From: Gammaproteobacteria bacterium
Lineage (GTDB): Bacteria; Pseudomonadota; Gammaproteobacteria; Eutrophobiales; Eutrophobiaceae
Direction of reading: 5' to 3'
Length of the DNA: 64,000 nt
NCBI GenBank assembly: GCA_965221335.1
Contig: CBDCSC010000001.1
Coordinates: 288,519 to 352,518, forward strand
Part shown: piece after piece, positions 7,370 to 22,338 of the stretch
Position numbering within the stretch: position 1 is the first letter of the stretch
How the letters are laid out: every line of letters starts with the position of its first letter
The notes under the pieces: generated by a model
What the model was told of the DNA's origin: nothing
What the model saw: only the letters and a program-made list of their open reading frames with translations
Databases searched by the model: none
Translations under genes and position numbers: made by a program

Positions 7370-7639
7370 TCCGCATGCCTCAACCCGGACATATTGTTTT
7401 CTAGGATTGTAACTCATTGTTTTATATTAGAATAATTGTTAAACTAGATTGAGCGTAAGCATATAGGAAGCGGATTCAAACAATGCTGTGCGCACTTGGA
7501 CGCGCTAACGGCTGGAAGCATACTCGAATTATTCGTGTGTAGTAGTAGCGTACCAAGTGAGAAAAACAGGTAGGAATGCTCAGCATCCGGACGCTTCGCC
7601 ACGTCAACGCCGATAACACACCTCAACGTATCCAACTTT

Positions 7640-8110
7640 AGGGCTTCACTCCAATTGACACTCCACTGCCTCAGTGCTCGTAGAGCGCGGTGAAGGCGTG
7701 CCGTTGAGGCCGAGTCTACGGGCACTGAGGCCACCTCGAACTGTGGCGCGATGCTACTCGCGGAGCCCGACCGCCGGGTTGATGCCTCATCCTGAGCCAA
7801 GGGGACCTCAACAACCACGGCCGGCTGCAGCTGGACCCCGCGCTGTAGGCGGCTGCAATGCGGGACGGGGTGGTGGCCAGCCCGTCGACGCTGTGCCGGT
7901 TGAAGAGCAAGTCCACGGTTGTGGAGGCGCTGGTGCTGCAGGGAGCTGTTCGATCGGTTCGTGAAGGTCCATACCGTGCCGCCGGTGCCCAGACAAAAGC
8001 ATGAGGGTTGGGAGCGGTGCGCCAGCAGACCGTGTCGGGTCACCGAACACGATAGGCGAGGAACCCAATACGGGGAGATTGACCCAGAGCAGTTAAACCG
8101 AATGTGAACT
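7640..8110 (+). pseudogene. degraded transposase-like remnant (IS4/IS5-type N-terminal region); no intact ORF
   Basis: The ~900-bp stretch between the TSUP gene and the CBASS genes has only short, mutually overlapping ORFs. One frame reads ...LQLDPAL*AAAMRDGVVASPSTLCRLKSKSTVVEALVLQGAVRSVREGP..., which resembles the (A/S)xPSTLxRF region near the N-terminus of IS4/IS5-group transposases and is broken by stop codons. The match is recalled from memory. Confidence 0.3.
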
Positions 8111-8283
8111 CTTCGCGAGACATCATGCACCTAGTTTCCGTAGGGCTTGAAATGAACGGGACAAGTCCCCATTTACTCAAGGAGTAATCAACAGACACGG
8201 GGTAGCTCTATGCTCAGAAAACGCGTGACCGAAAACGGCAAGCTGGAGGGCCCCATTTGGAAATAACCTAGATTAAAGCAGAG

Positions 8284-9150
8284 ATGGGAATCCCGGAGCA
8301 ACAACTTCAAACGTGGTCGCACTTGGGCGCGCAACAGAGCTCCCAGGCCACATATGCCTCGGTTAACAATGCCCTGCAGAACTACGACTGGCCAGTCGAG
8401 ATGGGCAAGCCTGAAGTTTACCTACAAGGCTCTTACCCGAACCACACCAACATCTACGGCGATAGCGACGTAGACGTCGTCGCTGAGACCTCAAGCGTTT
8501 TCTATCACAACGTGCCGGATGATCAGCGCAAACAATTCGGGTTGCCAGAACGCGGTACTGGAGCATATGGATGGCGAGAGTACAAGGATGAAGTGCTCGC
8601 TGCTCTATGTCAATACTACGGACACAACGTCGTCACCCCTCACAACAAGTGCATCAAGATTACTGGTGACAACAATCGCTTGAATGCTGATGTCGTTCCA
8701 TGCGTCCAGTATCGCAAGTACTACACATATAGATCCTTCGCAAAAGGCGTAACGTTCTGGACACGGGATGACAACAATCAAGTGGTCAATTTCCCCAAAA
8801 TCCACCTGTCGAAGGGCGCAGAGAAGAACTCAAGTTGCGACCAGCTCTACAAGCCCAACATCCGCGTCATAAAGAACGCTCGGAACCGTGCCAAGAACGA
8901 TTTCCCGTCTTACTTCCTCGAATGTCTGCTTTACAACGTGCCGAACCAGATATTTACTATCAGCTTCTCCGATACATTCTTCGAGGTGCTGACGTACCTA
9001 AACAACGCAAAAAATGACGGCTCAATGAGCGACTGGTACTGCCAGAATCGCCAGCAGAAGCTATTTGGGCATCGTAAACATCAGATCTCTATCGATGATG
9101 CTTACAAGCTGATTGCTGACCTGATCGACCTTTGGAACGATTGGGAATGA
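8284..9150 (+). CDS. cGAS/DncV-like nucleotidyltransferase (CD-NTase, SMODS) of a CBASS system
   Basis: 288 aa. It has the GS-x12-DxD nucleotidyltransferase motif (QGSYPNHTNIYGDSDVDVV) and a downstream hDhVP third-Asp motif (NADVVPCV). It overlaps the patatin effector gene by 19 nt. Confidence 0.7.
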   Translation: MGIPEQQLQTWSHLGAQQSSQATYASVNNALQNYDWPVEMGKPEVYLQGSYPNHTNIYGDSDVDVVAETSSVFYHNVPDDQRKQFGLPERGTGAYGWREYKDEVLAALCQYYGHNVVTPHNKCIKITGDNNRLNADVVPCVQYRKYYTYRSFAKGVTFWTRDDNNQVVNFPKIHLSKGAEKNSSCDQLYKPNIRVIKNARNRAKNDFPSYFLECLLYNVPNQIFTISFSDTFFEVLTYLNNAKNDGSMSDWYCQNRQQKLFGHRKHQISIDDAYKLIADLIDLWNDWE

Positions 9151-10064
9151 GTAGGCCGCACTTCGTCTTATCTCTTGACGGAGGAGGTTCTCTTGGTGTT
9201 TATACGCTCGGTGTACTCGTCGAAGTAGAACGTATGCTCGACCGCCCCCTTCACGAAGTATTCGAACTCATTTATGGTACGAGCACTGGTGCAATCATCG
9301 CGTCCATGATTGCGCTAGGCGAGGACGTCGAGACTACCATCCAGAATCGCTATTTCGAGATCATTCCTGATGTGATGGGTAAATCTTTCGCTTGGAGTAG
9401 GAGCCGTGCGCTACATCGCCACGCTTCGGAGATATACCAAGGCAAGAAGTTCGATGCGTTCCTTACCAACGTCGGGATCGTTGCGACCCACGTTGAATAC
9501 AACCGGCCGATGGTATTCAAACGAACAGTCAGTCAGGCGCACGGTCGCACGTCGAGCTTCTCACCTGGGTTCGGTTGCACGATCGCTGATGCAGTCATAG
9601 CGTCCTCGGCTGCCTACCCAATCTTTTCAAAGAAGCGTATAGATACGGTAAATAGTGGTGTCCGGACCGTTGTTGACGGTGGGTATTGCGGCAACAATCC
9701 CGCGTTATTCGCCCTAACTGATGCGCTTGGGCCGCTTGGATTCTCTCCGGGTGATGTGCGGCTTCTTAGTATCGGTACAGGGCAGTTCCCTGAGCGCTTT
9801 CGCCTCCTTACACGGGCGCTGACGCTGTTTGCCCCGACGATAATGACGCTTCTTAAGACTAGTTCCAACACCGTTGAAGTTCTAGAACAACTCTTGTTCA
9901 AAGATGTCCGCACTCTACGGATCAATGATGGGCAGACGGGCAGTAGATACAAAACTGACTTAATTGAGAGTGACGTAGCGCTACTGAAACAGATCTTTGA
10001 CCTAGGTCGGGAATCGTTTGCCGTACACGAGAGCGATTTGCGCAAGTTCTTTGATATTTCCTAG
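9132..10064 (+). CDS. capV: patatin-like phospholipase, CapV-type CBASS effector
   Basis: 310 aa. It has the GGGxxG oxyanion motif (LDGGGSLG), the GxSxG nucleophile elbow (GTSTG) and a DGG catalytic Asp motif (VVDGGYCGNNP). Confidence 0.75.
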   Translation: MERLGMSRPHFVLSLDGGGSLGVYTLGVLVEVERMLDRPLHEVFELIYGTSTGAIIASMIALGEDVETTIQNRYFEIIPDVMGKSFAWSRSRALHRHASEIYQGKKFDAFLTNVGIVATHVEYNRPMVFKRTVSQAHGRTSSFSPGFGCTIADAVIASSAAYPIFSKKRIDTVNSGVRTVVDGGYCGNNPALFALTDALGPLGFSPGDVRLLSIGTGQFPERFRLLTRALTLFAPTIMTLLKTSSNTVEVLEQLLFKDVRTLRINDGQTGSRYKTDLIESDVALLKQIFDLGRESFAVHESDLRKFFDIS

Positions 10065-10367
10065 CACATGTCGAAGCAATCATGAGCAACTGCTATCGAG
10101 CCATGCGCCGTCTGTTCTTGGCGGATCTGAACCAATCATATAACGCTCACGTAGTCCGTGTAGGAAGGGACCAGAGTTAGTCAATGCGTAGGCAAATGGA
10201 TCCCAGCAGTTCGGGTGCGTGTTACACGCCAATTCGGCCGCTGATTCCACGGCAAACCGGCCACCCATCCCACGGCAAGCCGGCCGTTCTATGTCGAGAA
10301 TGCTCAAGAGGGATGGAGCAGCAGTGGGTTGCCAGGCTGCAGGCAAGCATGTAGCTCGTCCTCCATT

Positions 10368-10679
10368 TCAGGGTGTGACATTGTGTCCCTCGGCGCACTC
10401 CCGGCGCGGCTTCTCTTTCACGCACCGCCAGATCATCTCGCTGTCGATCCAGATACACTTGGTACATGTGGTATCGACGGCAATGAAATCGGATTCTCTC
10501 CGGTCCACTGGATTCGGCAATGTAGTCGGCATGCTGCCTTCGGTCATTTTCTCGATTCCTTTGTCAATTCTCGAAACATATCCGTGGGCATGATGCCCCT
10601 GCCAAAATGAGTCACGCCAGAACACGAAAATGGTTTTCGTTACTCTATGGTATCCGGGCACCCATCTTGGGAGTGCCAC
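10368..10679 (-). CDS. hypothetical small Cys-containing protein downstream of the OLD-like ATPase
   Basis: 103-aa ORF overlapping the 3' end of the ATPase gene by 40 nt (10640-10679; the two are in different frames, so this may be chance rather than operon structure). It contains CxxC-x10-C-x8-C. I recognise no family, and several other ORFs overlap it. Confidence 0.2.
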   Translation of the reverse strand: MALPRWVPGYHRVTKTIFVFWRDSFWQGHHAHGYVSRIDKGIEKMTEGSMPTTLPNPVDRRESDFIAVDTTCTKCIWIDSEMIWRCVKEKPRRECAEGHNVTP

Positions 10680-12109
10680 AAGCTATTGATGACCTCGTCT
10701 CCTAAGAATTCTGCCAATTGGCCAGTTGGTCTTTGTCGGCCAATTGTCTGAGCAGTTCTGATTGTCCAGTGCACGCTCTTTGGATCCAAAATAGAGTTTA
10801 GTTCACCTATTAGCTCCTTGATGTCCACAATTTGTCGATCCCAGTCCGGAGCCTTCTTCAGCTTTTGTTCCTTATTTCCATATTTGCTAGCATCCTTGAC
10901 AATCTTGGCGGAAGCATCCGCCCAATTAGTCCCCATGGCTATCAAGACCTCATCGGTCAGGTACAGGTTCTCTGTCTCGTGACACGCCAACTGAATGAAC
11001 CGAATGTGGTCTTGCGGGCACTGCGGTGAAGGCATTGGCTTCCCCTTGTCGGCGTCGATCAATGCAAAACCCGACAACTCAGCACCATCCTCTCGCAGAG
11101 CCGCAAACATCTGTTCTAAAGACCGTTGATATCGTTTTATCTCGTTACCGTTGGACGGGAGGACTGCAAACGACACAATATGATGTCTGGGTATCTGACT
11201 CCAAATTCTATAGTCGTCATCACCTTCGACCAGAAGCAATGGCACACCGAATAGAGGTCCCATTAGAGCGTGTCCGCCCAAGACTGCTGAGAGTTCTTTC
11301 GTTACAGCTGTAAAAGGCTGTGCTGCGAAATCCGACTTTGTACGATCAAGATAGAGAACACTTGTGTCGCTGTCCCCGAATTGGCCTAGTGCAGCCATGA
11401 ATGTTGTGCTGTGCGTAGCTACGAGAATTTGGAGACGATATTGTCGTGCCGCCTGAACCAGGAAGTCGGAGAAGCGTACCTGTAGGTCAGGGTGGATATG
11501 GGCGTCAGGTTCGTCAATTAGAATGAGACGTTTGTCTCTTTCGGCAATTTCCCATATCGCCCCCATTGTCAAAACGTCTAGACCAATCGTGAGTAGCTGA
11601 GCTTCACCGCTACTCAACTCATCAATAGATCCAACTTGGCTTTGGTCAACAGACCTCATCAATTTGTATGGGGGGTTTGCGACGCCATCCAAGGCTAACT
11701 CAAAGTCTGGAATTAACTGCCCCATCAATTTCTCTAGGTCTTGCGGGTTGCCCGGAAGTTTGTCGGCCCGAATGTTTCCGCGCGCTGTGAAATATGCTTG
11801 AACTCGCGACACGATATGTTGCCGATACTCGTTTAGGTAGTTCTTCTGGCTAACTTTGCGCCGTTGTAGTGCGCTGAGTTGAGTGCGCAAGTAGTTTGGC
11901 TCGAAATCAAGAGTTCCCGTTCTCTCGGGAACCACATAGTGGATGCTATCACTGTCTTTATCACGAAGTGCGCGCAACATTAGACTTTTCCCCGAGCCAT
12001 TTTTCCCGAAGACGACGGTAATCGTATTTAAGTTCTTCAACATCCAGGGCTTACCGCCTAATGTACCTGGCTGGTCGATTGAAACGTTCTGAAAATATGG
12101 ACTTGTCAT
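10640..12109 (-). CDS. OLD-family ATP-dependent nuclease (ABC-type ATPase with C-terminal TOPRIM-like domain)
   Basis: 489 aa. It has Walker A (GKNGSGKS), an ABC signature-like motif (LSSGEAQLL), Walker B (LILIDEPDAHIHP) and an H-loop (VATHS). The C-terminal region has a TOPRIM-like Glu (LLLVEGDDDYRIW) followed ~60 aa later by DxD (FALIDADKG). Confidence 0.6.
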   Translation of the reverse strand: MTSPYFQNVSIDQPGTLGGKPWMLKNLNTITVVFGKNGSGKSLMLRALRDKDSDSIHYVVPERTGTLDFEPNYLRTQLSALQRRKVSQKNYLNEYRQHIVSRVQAYFTARGNIRADKLPGNPQDLEKLMGQLIPDFELALDGVANPPYKLMRSVDQSQVGSIDELSSGEAQLLTIGLDVLTMGAIWEIAERDKRLILIDEPDAHIHPDLQVRFSDFLVQAARQYRLQILVATHSTTFMAALGQFGDSDTSVLYLDRTKSDFAAQPFTAVTKELSAVLGGHALMGPLFGVPLLLVEGDDDYRIWSQIPRHHIVSFAVLPSNGNEIKRYQRSLEQMFAALREDGAELSGFALIDADKGKPMPSPQCPQDHIRFIQLACHETENLYLTDEVLIAMGTNWADASAKIVKDASKYGNKEQKLKKAPDWDRQIVDIKELIGELNSILDPKSVHWTIRTAQTIGRQRPTGQLAEFLGDEVINSLWHSQDGCPDTIE

Positions 12110-12274
12110 GCGCGAATTCCAGCGATCTGCGCAGAGCTTTCAACAAGGCACTAGTGCACTGATCGCGTTGATTTGATGATTAAAATGTCGCCCGAAATCA
12201 CTACTGTCTGGTCAATAGTTGAGTTAATTCAATTGCGTAGGATTTACATGAACATCACGAGTGTAATTAAATTT

Positions 12275-12900
12275 TGTCATTTTGCACCGTAATAGAGCCG
12301 GCCATTTTCACTTTAATGGAGCCACTTTAAGGCGCTGATTTTCGAGTTCAGACACGGGTATTATTTCTCTGTTTCGGCCTGCTTTGCAAGCGGTTTATCG
12401 ATGGGCCTCGGTGAGCGGTAACTGTTCCCATCCAAGACCACCCGGTAGGCGTTGTGGCGTAACCGGTCAAGGGTGGCGGCGCCAAGCAACCGGTTCGGGA
12501 AGGCATCGCCCCATTCGCCGAAGTCCAGGTTGCTGGTGATGACGGTAGCCGCCCGCTCATAGCGCTCTGCGACCAGGTCATGGAAGTCTTCATCCTGGGG
12601 CGGTCGCAGGGGTTTGAGGCCGAAGTCATCAATAATCAACACGGGCGTTTTGGCCAGGCTCTGGAACTGTCGCTCATAGGAGTCGGTGGCTCGGGCCGCA
12701 TGCAGCGTGCCCAGCAACCGGGATTGCGTCATAAACATCACATCGTGGCCCTGTCGCACGGCAGCATGACCGATGGCTTGGGCGATATGGCTCTTGCCGG
12801 TGCCACAGGGGCCGGCAATCAGGACGGCCACGCGCTCTTCGATGAAGCGACCGGTGACCAACTCATAGGGCAGCGCTGCGTTGATGTTGGGGTTGAAATC
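12275..12900 (-). mobile_element. istB: IS21-family remnant: terminal inverted repeat plus the 3' portion of istB
   Basis: TGTCATTTTGCACCG begins at 12275 and is followed by direct sub-repeats (GAGCCGGCCATTTTCACTTTAATGGAGCCACTTTAAGG), as in IS21-type multi-repeat ends. The ORF segment from about 12361 to 12900 encodes an IstB-like C-terminal ~175 aa (VLIAGPCGTGKSH Walker A, LIIDDFG Walker B). The IstB N-terminus and all of istA are missing. Confidence 0.55.
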
Positions 12901-13791
12901 AACGTCCGCGCTCGAGGCCTGAATGGACTCCCAGAGCAGGTGTGCGTAGCGCGCGGTCGAGTCGACTTTCCGGTGCCCTAGCAGTTTGCCGATCATCGAC
13001 AGGCCCTCGCCAATCGCGATCGCGTAAGAGGCGTAGGCGTGCCGCAGGTCGTGCAACCGCACATCGTCGAGGCCGGCGCGTTCCCGGATCCGGTCCCATA
13101 AAGTGCTGACGTTCACCTGGCGAGTGCTCTTCTTCCTGCCGGGAAACACCCACGGATTGTCGGTTGCCCTCAGAAGATCGGCCAGCACGTCCGCGACGGC
13201 CGGAGGAAGCGGTACGACGCAGGGACCCGTCTTGCTGTCGCGCAGCCGCATTTTGAACCGGCAGATCAGCTTGCATGGGTTTCGCCCCGGTGGACGCATC
13301 TGCCAGAGTTCCGCGAGGTCGAACATCTTCACCAGGATGTTCACGCAACTGTTGGTCGTGGTGGGCACCCGGCGCAACTTGTACTGGAACTCGAAGATGT
13401 CGTTGCGTTCCACCCCGGCCACCTTGAGTTACCCGAGGCGCGGCACGATGTGGTTCCGCAGCATCAGCCAGTAGGTATTGACCGTACCCGGCTTGCAGTG
13501 CGCCGCGACGTGCTCGCGCATGTAGCATCCGGCGAGATCCGAAACGGTCGGATCGGGCGCGGGCGCAATCTCGCCATGGTGGCCCACGGTCACGCGCTTC
13601 GACGTGCCGTTAGCACGCGTCTGAATGACGTACACTTTGCGTCCCGATGGATAGACGCTCACGCCGAAGCCCGGCAACTCGCGGTCCCAGAACACCGCGT
13701 CCTTGCCGTCGACCGCCAGCCGGTCCACGATTCGCTTGGAGAGGGTGAGGTACTGGCGTTGGGGCATGTCGTCGTTCGTCGGCAGGACCAT
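12901..13791 (-). pseudogene. int: P4-type tyrosine integrase, inactivated by an in-frame TAA at 13429-13431 and truncated or fused at the 3' end with the istB fragment
   Basis: The 13429-13791 ORF encodes an N-terminal arm/DUF4102-like domain (LTLSKRIVDRLAVDGKDAVFWDRELPGFGVSV). It continues in the SAME frame after a single TAA into the catalytic region (HDLRHAYASYAIAIGEGLSMIGKLLGHRKVDSTARYAHL), which then runs directly into IstB-like sequence. Confidence 0.6.
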
Positions 13792-16892: not shown

Positions 16893-17351
16893 TCAATGTG
16901 TCCTTTGTAGTAGTTTTCCAAGACGATTAATTTTTCTTCTGCTAATTTCATTATCCTTTAGTTCACATTCCCAAATTCGCAATACTTTCCATCCCCTTTT
17001 TTTAATCGTCCTATTAACCAATTTATCGCGTTTTTTATTGGCATTTATTTTTTTTATCCAAAACTCGTTGTTGTTTTCTGGAATTTGACCATGCTTTGGA
17101 CAATCATGCCAAAAACAGCCGTCGACAAATATCGCTACTTTACTATTTGGAAATGTAATATCTGGTTTGCCAAAAATAGGATATCTCCGACGCCAGCCTA
17201 CCAATCGTTTCTGTTTTAATAGTTCGATCAATTTCCCTTCGGTTGATTTATTTCCAGAGGAACGCACTCTACCCATCAGCCATGAGCGTTTTTCCTTTGA
17301 ATAAACATCAACCATTGTTTTGATGAGGGGCTTTTTTCTCGCACATATCAA
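16893..17351 (-). CDS. vsr: very-short-patch repair endonuclease
   Basis: 152 aa with the diagnostic Vsr motif FVDGCFWHDCPKHG. It overlaps the upstream GHKL gene by 44 nt and lies inside the low-GC block. Confidence 0.8.
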   Translation of the reverse strand: MICARKKPLIKTMVDVYSKEKRSWLMGRVRSSGNKSTEGKLIELLKQKRLVGWRRRYPIFGKPDITFPNSKVAIFVDGCFWHDCPKHGQIPENNNEFWIKKINANKKRDKLVNRTIKKRGWKVLRIWECELKDNEISRRKINRLGKLLQRTH

Positions 17352-18963
17352 CTCTGCGTAACAGAAAAGAAATCAAGCTCAATACGTCCAGGCAGTCGTC
17401 TTCATTGAAGTATCTTTTGGTCTCTGCTTTTACATGGTGAGATGTTGGATTTCTGAAAGATTCCGCAAGACCAACGGAGAGAGATCTCTGACCTCTTTGA
17501 ATGCTTTGTTTTGTTTCAGAGTTATTGAAAAAATCCGGGAGCTCCAAAATCGGATTATCGGCAGAAAAAACCTTGTTAAACAAGCTCGTCATATCGCTTT
17601 CTTGTCCTGATTTTTTTCTAACCAGATCACTGTATATCTTTGTGCCTTCTTGTGCAGCTTCTAAATATTGAGCGTTTTTATAGTATTCAATTAGTGGATT
17701 TTTTAATTTATTATCCAGATGTCTCCAGTGATAAAGAGGGTAGGGAGGTATGACCTCCTCCAGTTTAGTTAAAATAAGTGTTGATTTTTCAGAGTCGATT
17801 TCTTCAGAATTTGTAAATTCATCAATGAGAGAGACTACATTATCCCGCATACCTTCAGGGAGAGAATCCTGCCAAGATTGTATATCAATTTCAGTTCTCT
17901 GTTGGATATGTTCTTGTTTTTTCTCTTTGCGTTTTTTGCGCCAGTCTGACTGCACAAATTTGATACATTCCTCAAGATATCTATGAAGTTTACCGGTTTG
18001 TTCATGTCCCCAGTTTAGGCTTTGTCTATTAGTGGAAATCACATCTTCTGAAAAATCTTCAATGAAATCAACTTCGAGCCAACCCGTAAGATAAGAAAAG
18101 AAATGACTGGATGTGCTATCTGAAAATTGATACGGAGCTTGTACGAGTTTGCCCCTGGAAAATAATGATATTCCCCTTGAATTATATTTGGGTGGAATAG
18201 GTTTTTCTGACGTGATGATTTTTCCTTGGATATTGTGACGATATTCGTGATCAAGATCGATGTTTTTGAAATCCTCAGGGAATTTCCAGGAAAATTCCTC
18301 GCCAAATGCCGAAAAATGCATTTCATTCGAAAGCTTTATGGGTTTCTCATTATTGCGGCGAATTGAGACATTAAAATCTTCATCAAAAATAAAAAACTTC
18401 GCTATGTTATTAGCTAGAAGTTCGTCTGAGAAATCAGTTGATCGGGTTATGTTTTTCAGCGTTATTTTGGTTCCTTTCTGATCATCTTCAACAATTTCGT
18501 CCACAACATCAGGAATCATCTGGTACTGTCCTCCCGTTGAATTCATCAGATCATTCCAATCCATGGTAAATATATTCCTTTTTCCTTGGTTGACAGTATT
18601 GATGGTTATGGTCTGAACAATTCCAAAGAATGAAAGTTTTCCCAGACCTTTTTTACCAATTACTTTCCTTCCTCCTGGAGTTGTATGTTCCGTTTCTCTA
18701 CGGTTGCGGCCAATGACAAGAAATTTTTGATTGATATCGTCAAACGACATCCCTAACCCATTGTCTTTTATTACTATTTTTTTCTCTTCTATATCATAAA
18801 GTTCAATATCTACTTTTGTGGCATCAGCATCGTAAGCATTCGCAATAAGCTCTCCAAGGACTGGTGGAACTGTAGAATACATACGTACCCCCAGGTGCTC
18901 TATAACCTTTGGGTCAAATTTCATTAGCAATGGTTTATCGGGCATAAAATTTTCAGTTCGCAC
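17308..18963 (-). CDS. GHKL-superfamily ATPase (MORC/MutL-like; HATPase_c_3-type), R-M associated
   Basis: 551 aa. It has Bergerat-fold motifs: N-box ELIANAYDA, G1 IKDNGLGM, G2 GKKGLGKLSFFG. The long C-terminal region is of unknown function and contains an Rx4H segment (SFRNPTSHH) reminiscent of HEPN. It overlaps the MTase stop by 11 nt. Confidence 0.6.
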   Translation of the reverse strand: MRTENFMPDKPLLMKFDPKVIEHLGVRMYSTVPPVLGELIANAYDADATKVDIELYDIEEKKIVIKDNGLGMSFDDINQKFLVIGRNRRETEHTTPGGRKVIGKKGLGKLSFFGIVQTITINTVNQGKRNIFTMDWNDLMNSTGGQYQMIPDVVDEIVEDDQKGTKITLKNITRSTDFSDELLANNIAKFFIFDEDFNVSIRRNNEKPIKLSNEMHFSAFGEEFSWKFPEDFKNIDLDHEYRHNIQGKIITSEKPIPPKYNSRGISLFSRGKLVQAPYQFSDSTSSHFFSYLTGWLEVDFIEDFSEDVISTNRQSLNWGHEQTGKLHRYLEECIKFVQSDWRKKRKEKKQEHIQQRTEIDIQSWQDSLPEGMRDNVVSLIDEFTNSEEIDSEKSTLILTKLEEVIPPYPLYHWRHLDNKLKNPLIEYYKNAQYLEAAQEGTKIYSDLVRKKSGQESDMTSLFNKVFSADNPILELPDFFNNSETKQSIQRGQRSLSVGLAESFRNPTSHHVKAETKRYFNEDDCLDVLSLISFLLRRVDMCEKKAPHQNNG

Positions 18964-19993
18964 GAATGGCTTCTGCTATCCTGTAGGCAAGCTGTGGAGG
19001 TACTGCATTGCCAATTAGTTTGGCTACGATTGTTGGGTATTGATGCTTAAATTTATAATTTTCAAACGTTTGGAGAGCAGCGCCTTCTCTAAGAGACAGC
19101 CCTCTGTCTTCTTCGGGATGGGCAAACCTGCCATTAGAGATCCCATTAAATCTGGTTGTAATGGTTGAAGATGGCTTATCCCATCTCAGTCTTCCGTAAA
19201 CGTCACAAAATGATTCATCTTTATCTTTGTAAGCATCAATTTGAAGTTCCGGGTCATCTTTCCATGCTTTTCTTGTACCACCATTTTTGGGTGTAAGTAT
19301 TAGTCGTCTTAAATTTTTCTCAGATAAGGTTGCTACCGTATCCATAAAGTTATTTTCATCTCTGTGACCAGCCTGAAGAGTTGGGAATCCATTATGTGTT
19401 CCAATAAAATCTTTGAGAATCGATTCTCCTTCCGGATTTGGAAAGCTGATCAATTTTTGCACTCTGTTGGCAATTAAAATGAATCTCTTTCTACCCTGTG
19501 GTACTCCGTAATTCTTTGCGTTTATGATATTGCTGACAATTGCGTATTGATTATTTTTAAGTTTCTCACAAAACTTGTCAAGGCCGCTTTCTGAGGCCCG
19601 TCTTTTTATTCCAGGGACATTTTCAATAACCACATAGCCGGGTTTGTAGTAACTGACAAAGCGCCAAAAATCTTCGAGTAGCCCTTTGGTTCCTTTGGAT
19701 GAAGTTTTGTCAGAATTAAGATTGCTCCAGTATTGGCAGGGGCTGCAACCAATGAAGATTAAGGAATCATCATTGCGTTTAATTTCGCATTCATGTTCCA
19801 AAAAAGTCCGAGGCAGTTTCCGGATATCTTTCAGAAGAAACTTTGTGTCGGGATGATTCGCTTTGTATGTGTCTTTGCAATCCTTATCTTTATCTATGCC
19901 GACAAGAACCTTCATTCCAGACATTTTCATCCCTTGAGACATTCCGCCCGCGCCACAGAAAAAATCAACAACTTTTAAATCTTCATCTTTCAT
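18953..19993 (-). CDS. dcm: DNA (cytosine-5)-methyltransferase
   Basis: 346 aa with motif I FCGAGG, the PC motif (GCSPCQYWS) and ENV motif IV (VVIENVPGI). It overlaps the upstream GHKL gene by 4 nt. Confidence 0.85.
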   Translation of the reverse strand: MKDEDLKVVDFFCGAGGMSQGMKMSGMKVLVGIDKDKDCKDTYKANHPDTKFLLKDIRKLPRTFLEHECEIKRNDDSLIFIGCSPCQYWSNLNSDKTSSKGTKGLLEDFWRFVSYYKPGYVVIENVPGIKRRASESGLDKFCEKLKNNQYAIVSNIINAKNYGVPQGRKRFILIANRVQKLISFPNPEGESILKDFIGTHNGFPTLQAGHRDENNFMDTVATLSEKNLRRLILTPKNGGTRKAWKDDPELQIDAYKDKDESFCDVYGRLRWDKPSSTITTRFNGISNGRFAHPEEDRGLSLREGAALQTFENYKFKHQYPTIVAKLIGNAVPPQLAYRIAEAIRAN

Positions 19994-22338
19994 TTATCAC
20001 CACCGAGCTGATCAATGAGCGTCACTACATGAGTCGCAATTGCAGATGAGGCAATTCGCAAAACTTTATCTCCATCATATTCTTCCTGCTGGTTGAGAAT
20101 TTGCTCATTTTCAGTATCGTGGATAAGTTTTTTGTACATCGCCAAGGTAAGAATACCCACACCAAACCTAAAGCGATGTCTGATAATCTCTCGTTTATCC
20201 TCATCATTTTCACCAGACAGTAAAGACAATAGATACTTGTTGGCTTTGTTCACATATACAACTAATTCGTCTCCGCTGGCAACATGACCGCCTGATTCTT
20301 CATTATAATCATGCTCAGTCCAATCCTCTTTTTCCACCCATTCAATGTCAGGAAAATTTCGAGAAGGTTCGTTTTTCTTCTTTGTATCCGTTTCATCTCC
20401 GGGGGGATTTGTCTTTGTTTTCTCAGCACCTATAATTTTGACGATCACGTCAAAAACCAAAGGAGTAGTTCTGTTGGGATTTGAATCATTAAAGCCAAAC
20501 TGGACAAAGATTTCATCATCCTCTTTGGCTCCTGATGGAGGACTTATCTTTATGCGCAATTTTCCATTACGTAAAGAACCGGAATTTGGCAACGCCTCGG
20601 CTGGCGGGTGCAAAAATTCTCCTCGGTTATCTTCTCTCACCAAGTAGTCGTTTTGGGCGTCCGTTTTACACTCAATCCACCTGTAAGTATTGATGGGAAT
20701 AGTCTTGGTGTTGCCATCCTCAAGGTTGATAGGCGTCAAGTACGATGGAAATTGCTTCCCTTGATATTTTTCCTTTTTGCCGGGTATTTGTTTCGGGCTG
20801 TCAACAATACTTCCGATGTCAAAAAGCTCTTGGAGGTCGGGATTATTTTTAATGAGATTGGCAAGGAAATCTTTGCTGGTTTCATCCTTTATTTTTTCGC
20901 TAATACGACGACTTCTTATTTCTCTCGCATATGTTCTAAGCTCCCCATCATTTTTTAACGTATCTATAACAATCTCTCTCAATTCTCTTGTGAGTTGAAT
21001 TTGTGCCATTCTTTCCCTGTCAGGTTTAAATACAGCGGAGCGAGCAGTATTATCCATAGCATTGCAATCGATTTGGACAATCAAATGATTCCTCAAATCA
21101 TCCAGCCGTGCTTTTCGTAAAATACTCGCCCTTTCTTTTGCCTGAGTCTGTCCGTTAATTGTATAAAACATCCTGTAAGGATAATTTCGCAAGTAATCTT
21201 TCATTTTATCCAAGCCATAATAAGATATGCGAATTGTTCCCAGACTCGGGTTTTCGGAATTTTCTATTACCCCTTCAAATTCCATTTTACTTGTTTCACC
21301 AGCTTCGTTATCAGCTTTGATTACCGTCTTCATACCTGAAAATGTCCTTGCTGCAATGCCTTCTCCTCTTAGACCTCCTTTCGTGGGTTGGGCGTCAAAA
21401 TCATATAGACGAAGAGGTAATGCACAGTCAATAAGATTTGTTGTGAGTGCGTCATATAATCCAATATCAACTGCGCGGGCGCCCGGACCTATGTCATATT
21501 CATATAGCTTTACGATACTACCACCATGTTTGACAATACCAATGTCATCTCTGTTCAAAGCTCTGATTTCTTTGGACTCAAAGCAGGGAATGTCACCATT
21601 AGGACAAAAATATTCAACCACGGGCAAAACCTCTCTCAGGCGCGCCTCCCTTACTCTTATCAATGTCCATCCCCATAGACCATCGGAGGCAGTAGTCGTT
21701 TTTTTGGAAAGAATAAACTTGTACATGCCACTTCTGATTTCGGCGCGAGTACAGAAGGTAATGGAACCGGTACTGCCCATATTAAATCGGCCTTGAACAA
21801 ACCGGATGCCTTCCTTGTTTTTTTCCCCAAGAGACAGGAATGTTTTTTCAAAGTCCCCATGATTCTGACCCTCGCCAAAATCAACTATTGTGTAGCTTGG
21901 ACAAGTATTGTCTTTTCTTCCAGCACGTTTAATTCCAATTAAAACGCTTTTTTCTGCAAGTTTAGTTCTCTCCTCGCGGTCTAACAGAGTCAACCTGCCT
22001 TCTTGAACTTCAGGGAAGAAGCGTTTGACTGCTTCTGTCATGTTATTAGGAGTTGTTTCGCTTAGTATGTCTATTTCCTCTTCAAGTGCTTTTCGCATGA
22101 GGATTGCATCAATAGAATTTATTATCAGTTCCGCGAGCGCACCGACTGGCTCACTTGTTTGTACACCTACTCTATCCCAGTTCTTGTCGGCTCCTCCGTA
22201 AGGTCTCCAATTGTTGTCATCACAAAATTCAGGCCAAGTTGTCAAAATCTGCTTAACTTCCTTGGTTGAATGTGCACGAATAAATTTTTGTGATATTAAT
22301 TTGGCATTTTCATTATTCATATATTTCAATATTATCAT
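19990..22338 (-). CDS. large GHKL-superfamily ATPase (second paraMORC-like protein)
   Basis: 782 aa. N-box ELIINSIDA, G1 TIVDFGEGQ, G2 GRFNMGSTGS. The ~450-aa C-terminal extension is Lys/Glu/Asp-rich with no nuclease motif I can recognise. It is the first gene of the low-GC operon, with an AT-rich putative promoter region at 22340-22460. Confidence 0.55.
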   Translation of the reverse strand: MIILKYMNNENAKLISQKFIRAHSTKEVKQILTTWPEFCDDNNWRPYGGADKNWDRVGVQTSEPVGALAELIINSIDAILMRKALEEEIDILSETTPNNMTEAVKRFFPEVQEGRLTLLDREERTKLAEKSVLIGIKRAGRKDNTCPSYTIVDFGEGQNHGDFEKTFLSLGEKNKEGIRFVQGRFNMGSTGSITFCTRAEIRSGMYKFILSKKTTTASDGLWGWTLIRVREARLREVLPVVEYFCPNGDIPCFESKEIRALNRDDIGIVKHGGSIVKLYEYDIGPGARAVDIGLYDALTTNLIDCALPLRLYDFDAQPTKGGLRGEGIAARTFSGMKTVIKADNEAGETSKMEFEGVIENSENPSLGTIRISYYGLDKMKDYLRNYPYRMFYTINGQTQAKERASILRKARLDDLRNHLIVQIDCNAMDNTARSAVFKPDRERMAQIQLTRELREIVIDTLKNDGELRTYAREIRSRRISEKIKDETSKDFLANLIKNNPDLQELFDIGSIVDSPKQIPGKKEKYQGKQFPSYLTPINLEDGNTKTIPINTYRWIECKTDAQNDYLVREDNRGEFLHPPAEALPNSGSLRNGKLRIKISPPSGAKEDDEIFVQFGFNDSNPNRTTPLVFDVIVKIIGAEKTKTNPPGDETDTKKKNEPSRNFPDIEWVEKEDWTEHDYNEESGGHVASGDELVVYVNKANKYLLSLLSGENDEDKREIIRHRFRFGVGILTLAMYKKLIHDTENEQILNQQEEYDGDKVLRIASSAIATHVVTLIDQLGGDK

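What the first reader, a model, noticed from the sequence alone, without database searches (positions are those of the whole stretch)
10368..12109. Compact single-polypeptide OLD-family ATPase-TOPRIM (489 aa) with an overlapping small Cys-rich downstream ORF
The protein has full ABC-type ATPase motifs plus a C-terminal E...DxD TOPRIM signature (LLLVEGDDD ... IDAD). This is the OLD (overcoming lysogenization defect) nuclease architecture, but it is ~100 aa shorter than P2 Old. Class-1 OLD proteins and the PARIS AriA/AriB pair are phage-defense effectors. Here the ATPase and TOPRIM are in one chain, and a 103-aa ORF with a CxxC...C...C pattern overlaps the 3' end of the gene by 40 nt. It lies next to the CBASS pair, forming a small defense cluster.
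Basis: partly seen in the sequence, partly recalled or inferred. Interest (0 to 1): 0.55.

Follow-up and report, generated by a model that had tools for sequence, protein, structure and literature searches.

The report
Stand-alone PARIS/OLD-like ATPase–TOPRIM nuclease gene
The 489-aa gene is a real, intact single-chain ABC-ATPase plus TOPRIM nuclease. It belongs to an uncharacterised, unusually conserved branch of the OLD/PARIS phage-defence superfamily, but the small Cys-rich ORF said to partner it has no evolutionary support.

Summary

E295, D352, D354, E380 and N381 are invariant in 50 homologues down to 25% identity. Of those homologues, 17 touch DUF4435 and 7 touch OLD-like_TOPRIM.

The protein belongs to a fixed-architecture family of about 480-520 aa. 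The family has no conserved neighbour gene and is spread across bacterial phyla, CPR bacteria and archaea at 45-77% identity. It is often found beside recombinases.

The architecture is already known and validated elsewhere: Class 1 OLD, fused PARIS, and the 490-aa HEC-04/IbfA. This is therefore a new clade of a known kind.

The 103-aa ORF exists, but its only database match is itself. It is absent from 51 homologous loci. Its 40-nt overlap depends on a poorly supported GTG start, and ORFs of this length are common in the window.

The adjacent CBASS-like cyclase and patatin pair is confirmed. Interest is modest.

The parts
10640..12109 (-). 489-aa ABC ATPase-TOPRIM gene (whole CDS, stop included)
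   Evidence: The ORF is listed. More than 1000 homologues were found, the best 120 being 454-542 aa (one 396-aa fragment) at 55-77% identity. The AF2 model has pLDDT 87.4.
11315..12109 (-). ABC ATPase domain (residues 1-265) with only a short helical insert (about 60-135)
   Evidence: Pfam gives AAA_21 at 4.3e-17 and AAA_15 at 9e-14. A family profile hits AriA at 1.5e-15 as the best PDB chain. Secondary structure comes from the model.
11984..12007 (-). Walker A, GKNGSGKS (residues 35-42; K41)
   Evidence: Read directly from the sequence. G35, G40 and S42 are invariant and K41 is at least 90% conserved in 50 homologues.
11240..11314 (-). Interdomain linker (residues 266-290) carrying the motif LGGHALMGPLFG
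   Evidence: L277, G278, G279, H280, L282, M283, F287 and P290 are invariant among the 34 close homologues. Across the 50 wider homologues G278 and L282 are at least 90% conserved, and the consensus is LPxFGAHPL. Residues 280-286 have pLDDT below 50.
10934..11239 (-). TOPRIM core (residues 291-392): beta1 then E295 (11225-11227), beta3 then D352-A-D354 (11048-11056), E378-T-E380-N381 (10967-10978)
10673..10933 (-). C-terminal helical bundle (residues 393-479) with invariant K431 and W448
   Evidence: Helices come from the model.
10368..10679 (-). 103-aa GTG ORF (or a 59-aa ATG form at 10368-10547). Probably a spurious or strain-specific orphan ORF, not part of the system.
   Evidence: The only database hit is itself. 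No family matches it. It is absent from the homologous loci. Codon score and SD signals are inconclusive.
12360..12389 (-). Promoter-like site (TTGCAA-18-AATAAT) in the AT-rich 250-nt leader upstream of the gene
   Evidence: This is a consensus scan only and is not above the shuffle expectation. GC is 0.42-0.44 at 12000-12449.
8284..10064 (+). Neighbouring, convergent CBASS-like pair: SMODS-type cyclase (8284-9150) and patatin phospholipase (9132-10064). This is a separate system.
   Evidence: PADLOC gives Cyclase 5.4e-94 and Effector 1.8e-102. NCBIfam DS2_2 and DS2_1 match just below their cut-offs.

Best explanation
The gene encodes a self-contained, single-gene nuclease of the ABC-ATPase/TOPRIM (OLD-PARIS) superfamily. 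It most likely acts as an anti-phage or anti-mobile-element abortive-infection effector.

**Shown**
- The protein has an intact ABC ATPase head. All catalytic motifs are present, and AriA is the closest solved relative.
- The ATPase is fused through a conserved linker to a TOPRIM domain. That domain carries an invariant acidic set (E295, D352-x-D354, E380; D298/D299 and E378 nearly so) plus a helical bundle.
- The architecture is fixed at about 480-520 aa, and the family has no obligatory partner gene.

**Inferred**
- ATP binding dimerises the heads, with the signature motif acting in trans.
- A trigger, such as a phage protein or an aberrant nucleic acid, changes the ATPase or oligomer state and unmasks the TOPRIM site.
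- The TOPRIM site then cleaves nucleic acid by two-metal catalysis and arrests the infected cell.
- The TOPRIM is nearest to AriB/DUF4435. AriB cleaves tRNA, and a 2026 preprint reports the same for P2 Old. I therefore rate tRNA (translation arrest) slightly more likely than DNA nicking or exonuclease activity.
- The nuclease is covalently tethered, so activation cannot be by release as in two-gene PARIS. It must be conformational, as proposed for the P2 Old tetramer-to-dimer switch.

The downstream small ORF is not part of the system.
For: **Domain assignment**
- ATPase: Pfam AAA_21 and AAA_15. PADLOC's best hit is AriAB at 5.7e-22 over residues 84-389. The family profile hits AriA at 1.5e-15 and aligns colinearly with retron Eco8 OLD, TsOLD and GajA across Walker B into TOPRIM beta1.
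- TOPRIM by family: 17 of 50 members touch DUF4435, 7 of 50 OLD-like_TOPRIM and 6 of 50 DUF3226.
- An E. coli homologue matches at hhalign probability 99.9. Its C-terminus hits PADLOC AriB at 1.2e-5.
- Catalytic residues are invariant, and their spacing mirrors the AriB pentad.

**Stand-alone status**
- The architecture is fixed in 283 clusters.
- No neighbour is conserved in 51 loci.
- DNA homology stops at the CDS ends.

**Defence context**
- In the window the gene sits next to a CBASS-like pair and to integrase and IstB relics.
- Recombinases, ResIII and integrases are the commonest neighbours elsewhere.
- The E. coli homologue is accessory, present in 28 of 5426 genomes.

**Precedent**
- HEC-04 is a 490-aa ABC-TOPRIM protein that defends against T4 and T5. 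It needs K62 and E319/D375/D377.
- IbfA is a further example.
- Fused PARIS exists.
- AriB and P2 Old are reported to be tRNases.
Against: - There is no experimental datum for this family.
- The window protein's C-terminal domain alone gives no Pfam, PADLOC or PDB sequence hit even at E<=10.
- The PADLOC AriAB score is carried mainly by the ATPase part.
- Sequence conservation is atypically high for a defence gene: 55-77% among the best 120 hits and 45-60% to CPR and archaeal members. The family is absent from 2.9 million viral contigs. A conserved cellular role is therefore not excluded.
- Many homologues sit among ordinary metabolic genes, for example L002.
- Neither the substrate nor the trigger can be deduced from sequence.
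Confidence: 0.65

Rival explanations
1. Two-gene system. The ATPase-TOPRIM works with the downstream, translationally coupled 103-aa Cys-rich protein, for example a zinc-binding regulator, antitoxin or sensor.
For: - The ORF exists and overlaps the ATPase stop by 40 nt if the GTG start is used.
- Its frame has the best codon-usage score of the six frames in that interval. The score is 0.158, similar to the island genes.
- SD-like motifs precede both candidate starts.
- A public annotation calls a 59-aa version.
Against: - The only hit among 5.8 billion clusters is its own 59-aa form. That cluster also holds the 103-aa form from a second, 8.7-kb contig.
- No Pfam, NCBIfam, PADLOC or PDB match was found.
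- tblastn and tblastx found nothing in 80 fetched loci, including 51 with a full-length homologue.
- Downstream genes differ in every locus. The closest homologue has an unrelated 336-aa gene there.
- About 18% of shadow ORFs reach the same codon score.
- The window holds 101 shadow ORFs of at least 100 aa.
- The better-supported ATG start removes the overlap.
Confidence: 0.05
2. The gene is not an immune gene. The family is a conserved ATP-dependent nuclease with a cellular or mobile-element maintenance role, such as DNA repair or processing or an addiction module, and it only happens to sit in an island here.
For: - Conservation across phyla and domains is unusually high.
- Long invariant stretches are present, including the linker.
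- Some homologues lie among housekeeping or metabolic genes or next to uvrA-like genes.
- No family member was found in IMG/VR.
Against: - The distribution is sporadic and accessory: 109 confirmed matches in a collection of 185,579 species genomes, and 28 of 5426 E. coli genomes for the distant homologue.
- Contexts are variable, with recombinases and integrases the commonest neighbours.
- In the window it is flanked by CBASS-like genes and decayed integrase and IS21 fragments.
- All characterised relatives with this architecture (OLD, PARIS, Gabija, HEC-04, IbfA) are defence proteins.
Confidence: 0.2
3. The C-terminal domain is a non-catalytic, TOPRIM-like regulatory or binding module. The protein would be an ATPase sensor that needs an unlinked effector.
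For: - No significant sequence match to any TOPRIM model for the window protein.
- Structural similarity is modest, and CheY-like folds score only slightly lower.
Against: - The full acidic set and the E-x-E-N motif are invariant down to 25% identity. This is the signature of an active two-metal site.
- The equivalent residues are essential in AriB and HEC-04.
- No conserved partner gene exists.
Confidence: 0.05

Closest known systems
PARIS (AriA ABC ATPase + AriB DUF4435 TOPRIM), especially its single-polypeptide fused form
   Same: - AriA is the best solved-structure sequence match for the ATPase.
- PADLOC's best model is AriAB.
- Divergent family members touch DUF4435 and PADLOC AriB.
- The acidic residue spacing matches AriB E26/D30/D88/E90/E122.
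- Fused forms are documented.
   Different: - At 489 aa it is about 200 residues shorter than the 694-position AriAB model.
- The ATPase insert is short, so the coiled-coil inserts that build the AriA hexameric propeller appear to be missing.
- The window protein does not reach DUF4435 at all.
- Release of the nuclease is impossible in a fusion.
- The trigger is unknown.
Class 1 OLD family nucleases (P2 Old, Thermus scotoductus OLD)
   Same: - N-terminal ABC ATPase plus C-terminal TOPRIM in one chain.
- Single-gene genomic context.
- The profile aligns across the ATPase-TOPRIM junction.
   Different: - No OLD-like_TOPRIM Pfam hit for the window protein; only 7 of 50 family members hit it, all at weak E-values.
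- It is shorter than P2 Old.
- A dimerisation-domain insert is not evident.
- The TOPRIM is nearer the AriB type.
HEC-04 / IbfA (single-chain ABC ATPase-TOPRIM defence proteins, 490-518 aa)
   Same: - Same compact size and the same two-domain order.
- Near-identical spacing of the Walker A Lys, the TOPRIM Glu and DxD: K62/E319/D375-D377 in HEC-04 against K41/E295/D352-D354 here.
- HEC-04 is experimentally shown to need both domains for defence.
   Different: - The sequence family is different. hhalign aligns only the ATPase part (probability 96%, E 2e-9).
- Walker B is LIEEIENGLHP in HEC-04 against LIDEPDAHIHP here.

Membership tests
OLD family nuclease (Class 1) | N-terminal ABC-type ATPase with Walker A/B, signature motif and H-loop | tested here: met
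   Pfam gives AAA_21 and AAA_15. The motifs are invariant.
OLD family nuclease (Class 1) | C-terminal TOPRIM with conserved Glu and DxD metal ligands | tested here: met
OLD family nuclease (Class 1) | Match to the OLD-like_TOPRIM profile (PF20469) | tested here: not met
   No hit for the window protein at E<=0.1, or at E<=10 for the C-terminal domain alone. Only 7 of 50 family members hit it, best E 2.7e-4.
OLD family nuclease (Class 1) | Dimerisation domain inserted in the ATPase | tested here: inconclusive
   The model shows only a helical insert of about 75 residues, at roughly 60-135. The oligomeric state was not modelled.
OLD family nuclease (Class 1) | Single gene without a linked helicase or retron | tested here: met
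   No neighbour is conserved in 51 loci.
PARIS, fused AriAB | AAA_15/AAA_21 ATPase related to AriA | tested here: met
   Shown. AriA is the best PDB chain at 1.5e-15 with the family profile.
PARIS, fused AriAB | DUF4435 (PF14491) domain at or above the gathering score (27 bits) | tested here: not met
   No hit for the window protein. The E. coli homologue scores 15.3 bits, E 0.017. Of the family, 17 of 50 hit it at E<=0.1, best 2.5e-5.
PARIS, fused AriAB | Match to a fused AriAB profile | tested here: inconclusive
   PADLOC AriAB gives 76.2 bits, E 5.7e-22, over residues 84-389. The C-terminal 236 aa alone give no hit. The published detection thresholds were 80 or 20 bits, depending on the model.
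PARIS, fused AriAB | AriB-type acidic pentad (E26, D30, D88, E90, E122) | tested here: met
   The pattern E295/D299/D352/D354/E378-E380 has matching spacing. The 3-D geometry was not superposed.
PARIS, fused AriAB | Coiled-coil inserts forming the AriA hexamer scaffold; trigger-induced release of AriB | not testable with these tools
   The length (489 aa against the 694-position model) and the short insert argue against it. Assembly was not modelled.
HEC-04 / IbfA | Sequence homology over both domains | tested here: not met
   hhalign aligns only the ATPase region. tblastn against plasmids returned 14 records, none from Salmonella or described as IncI1; whether pUA1135 is in that collection was not checked.
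CBASS (neighbouring pair, not the finding itself) | CD-NTase/SMODS cyclase plus a nucleotide-activated effector in one operon | tested here: met
   PADLOC gives Cyclase 5.4e-94 and phospholipase Effector 1.8e-102. The genes overlap by 19 nt.

The most novel reading that the evidence does not exclude
This clade is more than another OLD/PARIS look-alike. It shows 45-77% identity across bacterial phyla, CPR bacteria and archaea. It has an invariant but predicted-disordered linker motif (GGHxLMGPLFG; FGAHPL in the wider family). It also has a fixed compact architecture with no partner.

Together these features could indicate a distinct activation mechanism. One possibility is an autoinhibitory linker that plugs the TOPRIM site and is displaced on sensing a universally conserved target such as tRNA or the ribosome. 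That would explain both the conservation and the ease of cross-domain transfer.
Probability: 0.15. Interest if true: 0.55.

Novelty: new variant of a known kind. Interest (0 to 1): 0.32.

Why it matters
Single-chain ABC-ATPase/TOPRIM proteins are a recurring solution in prokaryotic immunity (OLD, fused PARIS, HEC-04/IbfA).

- **Annotation gap.** This clade is invisible to the TOPRIM and DUF4435 profiles and is annotated only as "AAA family ATPase". Current defence finders may miss it or file it loosely under PARIS. A dedicated profile would recover several hundred clusters.
- **Experimental use.** Its small size, lack of partner genes and strong conservation make it a convenient minimal model for how an ABC ATPase gates a tethered TOPRIM nuclease. 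It could also help settle whether tRNA cleavage is general in this superfamily.
- **Correction to the finding.** The overlapping Cys-rich partner ORF should not be propagated as a component.

Tried and rejected
The window protein's C-terminal 236 aa gave nothing against Pfam or PADLOC, and a PDB search with a profile of the close family's C-terminal domains (A2) gave only chance-level hits, all at E<=10. The TOPRIM call therefore rests on structure and on divergent relatives.
- **Small ORF as remnant of the closest homologue's partner gene.** tblastn found no similarity to that 336-aa gene.
- **Conserved partner gene.** All-vs-all clustering of 1204 neighbouring ORFs from 51 loci found no conserved partner, and a Pfam scan of 150 neighbours from 41 loci gave 139 families, none in more than 6 neighbours.
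- **Mobile cassette.** Flanking repeats and conserved flanking DNA were sought and not found.
- **Island attachment site.** tRNA, tmRNA and Rfam elements were sought near the island and none was found.
- **Source contig and organism.** The exact-match look-ups for the ATPase and the 59-aa ORF found no contig on record.
- **HEC-04 as the same family.** Rejected, because only the ATPase part aligns.
- **Phage carriage.** No close member was found in IMG/VR or in GenBank phages.
- **Literature on NCBIfam "DS2".** The search was unproductive.
- **A scripting error.** A first codon-usage score for the small ORF was computed out of frame and corrected.
Full report
**1. What is in the sequence**

The minus strand carries a 489-aa ATG ORF at 10640-12109. 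A 103-aa GTG ORF lies at 10368-10679 and overlaps it by 40 nt.

Upstream of the large ORF is an AT-rich 250-nt leader (GC 0.42-0.44). It holds one promoter-like site, which is not above chance.

On the other side, transcribed convergently, lie a SMODS-type nucleotidyltransferase (8284-9150) and a patatin phospholipase (9132-10064). PADLOC scores them as CBASS Cyclase (5.4e-94) and Effector (1.8e-102).

Beyond the leader are relics of a tyrosine integrase and an IS21 IstB fragment fused into one reading frame (12361-13791). The gene therefore sits in a decayed integrative island.

**2. The large protein: ATPase half**

- Pfam assigns AAA_21 (4.3e-17) and AAA_15 (9e-14).
- Walker A (GKNGSGKS), the signature motif (LSSGE), Walker B (LILIDEPD) and the H-loop His are conserved. 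This holds in 34 close homologues and in 50 homologues reaching 25% identity.
- With a family profile, the best solved chain is AriA of PARIS (1.5e-15). Retron PtuA-type ATPases, retron Eco8 OLD, TsOLD and GajA follow. The last three align colinearly from Walker B into the first TOPRIM strand.
- The AF2 model (pLDDT 87.4) shows only a short helical insert in the ATPase. This explains the small size.

**3. The large protein: C-terminal half**

Taken alone, residues 254-489 match nothing in Pfam or PADLOC, and a profile of the close family's C-terminal domains gave only chance-level hits to PDB sequences, all at E<=10. Four other lines of evidence identify a TOPRIM domain of the AriB/DUF4435-OLD type.

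- **(a) Fold.**
  - The domain model has pLDDT 85.5.
  - Foldseek ranks AriB first and second, though weakly.
  - The full-length model retrieves GajA, TsOLD and retron Eco8.
- **(b) Topology and residues.**
  - E295 follows strand 1, D352-A-D354 follows strand 3, and E378-T-E380-N381 begins the next helix.
  - E295, G296, D352, D354, C376, E380, N381, K431 and W448 are invariant in all 50 homologues.
  - The spacing mirrors the AriB metal ligands E26/D30/D88/E90/E122.
- **(c) Transitive homology.**
  - An E. coli 504-aa protein is a full-length homologue (tblastn 6e-25; hhalign probability 99.9, E 1.9e-34).
  - Its C-terminus hits PADLOC AriB (1.2e-5) and DUF4435 (0.017).
- **(d) Family-wide scan.** Across 50 family members, 17 touch DUF4435 (best 2.5e-5), 7 touch OLD-like_TOPRIM and 6 touch DUF3226.

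**4. The family**

- More than 1000 homologues were found. The best 120 are 454-542 aa apart from one 396-aa fragment, 55-77% identical, and annotated at most as "AAA family ATPase".
- In 185,579 species genomes there are 109 confirmed matches. They are spread over Proteobacteria, Acidobacteriota, Planctomycetota, Chloroflexota, several CPR lineages and archaea, still at 45-60% identity.
- A profile of the C-terminal domain, searched against 1.84 billion representatives, finds only 283 clusters. Essentially all full-length ones are 470-520 aa with the domain at about 255-485. The architecture is therefore fixed.
- No close member occurs in IMG/VR or in GenBank phages.
- DNA similarity between loci ends at the CDS boundaries, and no flanking repeats exist.
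- An all-vs-all comparison of 1204 neighbouring ORFs from 51 loci found no conserved partner. A Pfam scan of 150 neighbours from 41 loci gave 139 families. The commonest were serine recombinases (6), ResIII (4) and integrases (3).
- The E. coli homologue is accessory, present in 28 of 5426 genomes, and sits between yfgI and guaA next to an IS fragment.
- This is the behaviour of a stand-alone, horizontally mobile gene, as described for Class 1 OLD.

**5. The small ORF**

- Its only match among 5.8 billion clusters is a 59-aa protein, 100% identical over 57% of its length. That cluster also holds the 103-aa form, from a second, 8.7-kb contig.
- No family or structure matches it.
- Neither it nor the whole 10065-10700 interval has a counterpart in the 80 fetched loci.
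- Downstream genes differ everywhere. The closest homologue (77% identity) has an unrelated 336-aa gene there.
- The window contains 160 ORFs of at least 100 aa, about 101 of them shadows.
- Codon usage is the best of the six frames in that interval (0.158) and comparable to the island genes. However, 18% of shadow ORFs score as high.
- The GTG start that creates the 40-nt overlap has its AGGAG about 20 nt upstream. An internal ATG (10547) has AAGGA at 9 nt and would give a non-overlapping 59-aa product.
- Conclusion: this is at best a strain-specific orphan ORF. It is not a component of the system.

**6. Mechanism**

Shown:
- An intact ABC ATPase is joined to an intact TOPRIM metal site in one chain.
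- There is no partner gene.
- The gene lies in a defence or mobile-element context.

Inferred from characterised relatives:
- HEC-04 is a 490-aa protein of the same architecture. It needs its Walker A Lys and its TOPRIM E/DxD for defence.
- AriB cleaves tRNA after AriA senses Ocr.
- A 2026 preprint reports P2 Old as a tRNase opened by a tetramer-to-dimer transition.

From these I propose ATP-dependent sensing by the ABC head and a conformational unmasking of the tethered TOPRIM. Two-metal cleavage of tRNA (slightly favoured) or DNA would follow and cause abortive infection. The trigger and the substrate remain unknown.

**7. Comparison and novelty**

- By function the protein resembles fused PARIS, Class 1 OLD and HEC-04.
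- By membership it fails the DUF4435 and OLD-like_TOPRIM profile tests. It aligns with HEC-04 only in the ATPase.
- It is best filed as a distinct, uncharacterised clade within the ABC-ATPase/TOPRIM superfamily, that is, a new variant of a known kind.
- Two features are unusual and unexplained. One is the high cross-phylum conservation. The other is the linker motif (LGGHALMGPLFG), invariant among the close homologues and recognisable as FGAHPL in the wider family, which AF2 leaves disordered.

**8. Verdict**

The ATPase-TOPRIM gene and the CBASS-like neighbours stand. The small partner ORF does not.
- Interest is modest (0.32).
- The compactness is not exceptional. The architecture is already validated elsewhere. 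The element that would have made the finding novel is unsupported.

Noticed in passing
window 12361-13791 (-): A 353-aa ORF fuses a Phage_integrase fragment (residues 68-162) to an IstB_IS21 fragment (residues 150-337). The adjacent 120-aa ORF carries an Arm-DNA-bind_3 integrase N-terminus. Together they look like relics of an integrase disrupted by IS21 and mark the edge of a decayed integrative island.
   Followed up: partly
window 16893-22338 (-): A low-GC block (0.35-0.41) encodes Vsr, a 551-aa HATPase_c_3 + Hypoth_Ymh protein, a Dcm-type C5 cytosine methylase and a 782-aa HATPase_c_3 protein. It appears to be a second, foreign restriction or defence-like module about 5 kb from the finding.
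   Followed up: partly
window 7444-8250: This GC-rich stretch (0.64-0.66) lies between the TauE-like membrane gene and the cyclase. Its longest ORF (228 aa, minus strand) has no Pfam hit, and no tRNA or Rfam element is present. Its nature is unknown.
   Followed up: partly
window 11240-11314 (-), residues 266-290: The linker motif LGGHALMGPLFG is invariant among the 34 close homologues (LPxFGAHPL in the wider family). AF2 nevertheless predicts it as disordered, with pLDDT below 50 at residues 280-286. It may be a regulatory latch.
   Followed up: no
window 8284-10064 (+): The cyclase and patatin pair scores just below the NCBIfam cut-offs for 'DS2_2/DS2_1 antiphage' (264 against 350 bits, and 350 against 400 bits). 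The gene order is cyclase first, with a 19-nt overlap.
   Followed up: partly
L081 5965-8754 (E. coli NZ_CP134663.1): A distant 504-aa homologue sits between yfgI and guaA in 28 of 5426 complete E. coli genomes. It is followed by an IS3-type transposase fragment and a 256-aa ORF that I did not characterise further. The record is labelled a plasmid but is 4.9 Mb long.
   Followed up: partly
L001 7228-8238: The closest homologue (77% identity) has a different overlapping downstream gene: 336 aa, no Pfam family, 17-nt overlap. The pair is flanked by serine recombinases.
   Followed up: partly
L005, L006, L008, L009 upstream of the homologue: Four loci (three alphaproteobacterial by record title, one labelled only 'proteobacterium') share ORFs immediately upstream: 1044 aa in L005, 1081 aa in L008, 774 aa in L009 and a 199-aa ORF at the contig end in L006. 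These may account for the UvrA-domain hits among the scanned neighbours. This looks like shared synteny rather than a functional partner.
   Followed up: no
proteins P0137, P0155, P0246, P0258: Several database entries of about 245-265 aa consist of the TOPRIM half alone. Some begin inside the ATPase H-loop region, which suggests fragments. Others begin with Met just before the FGAHPL motif and might be genuine split (two-gene) versions.
   Followed up: no
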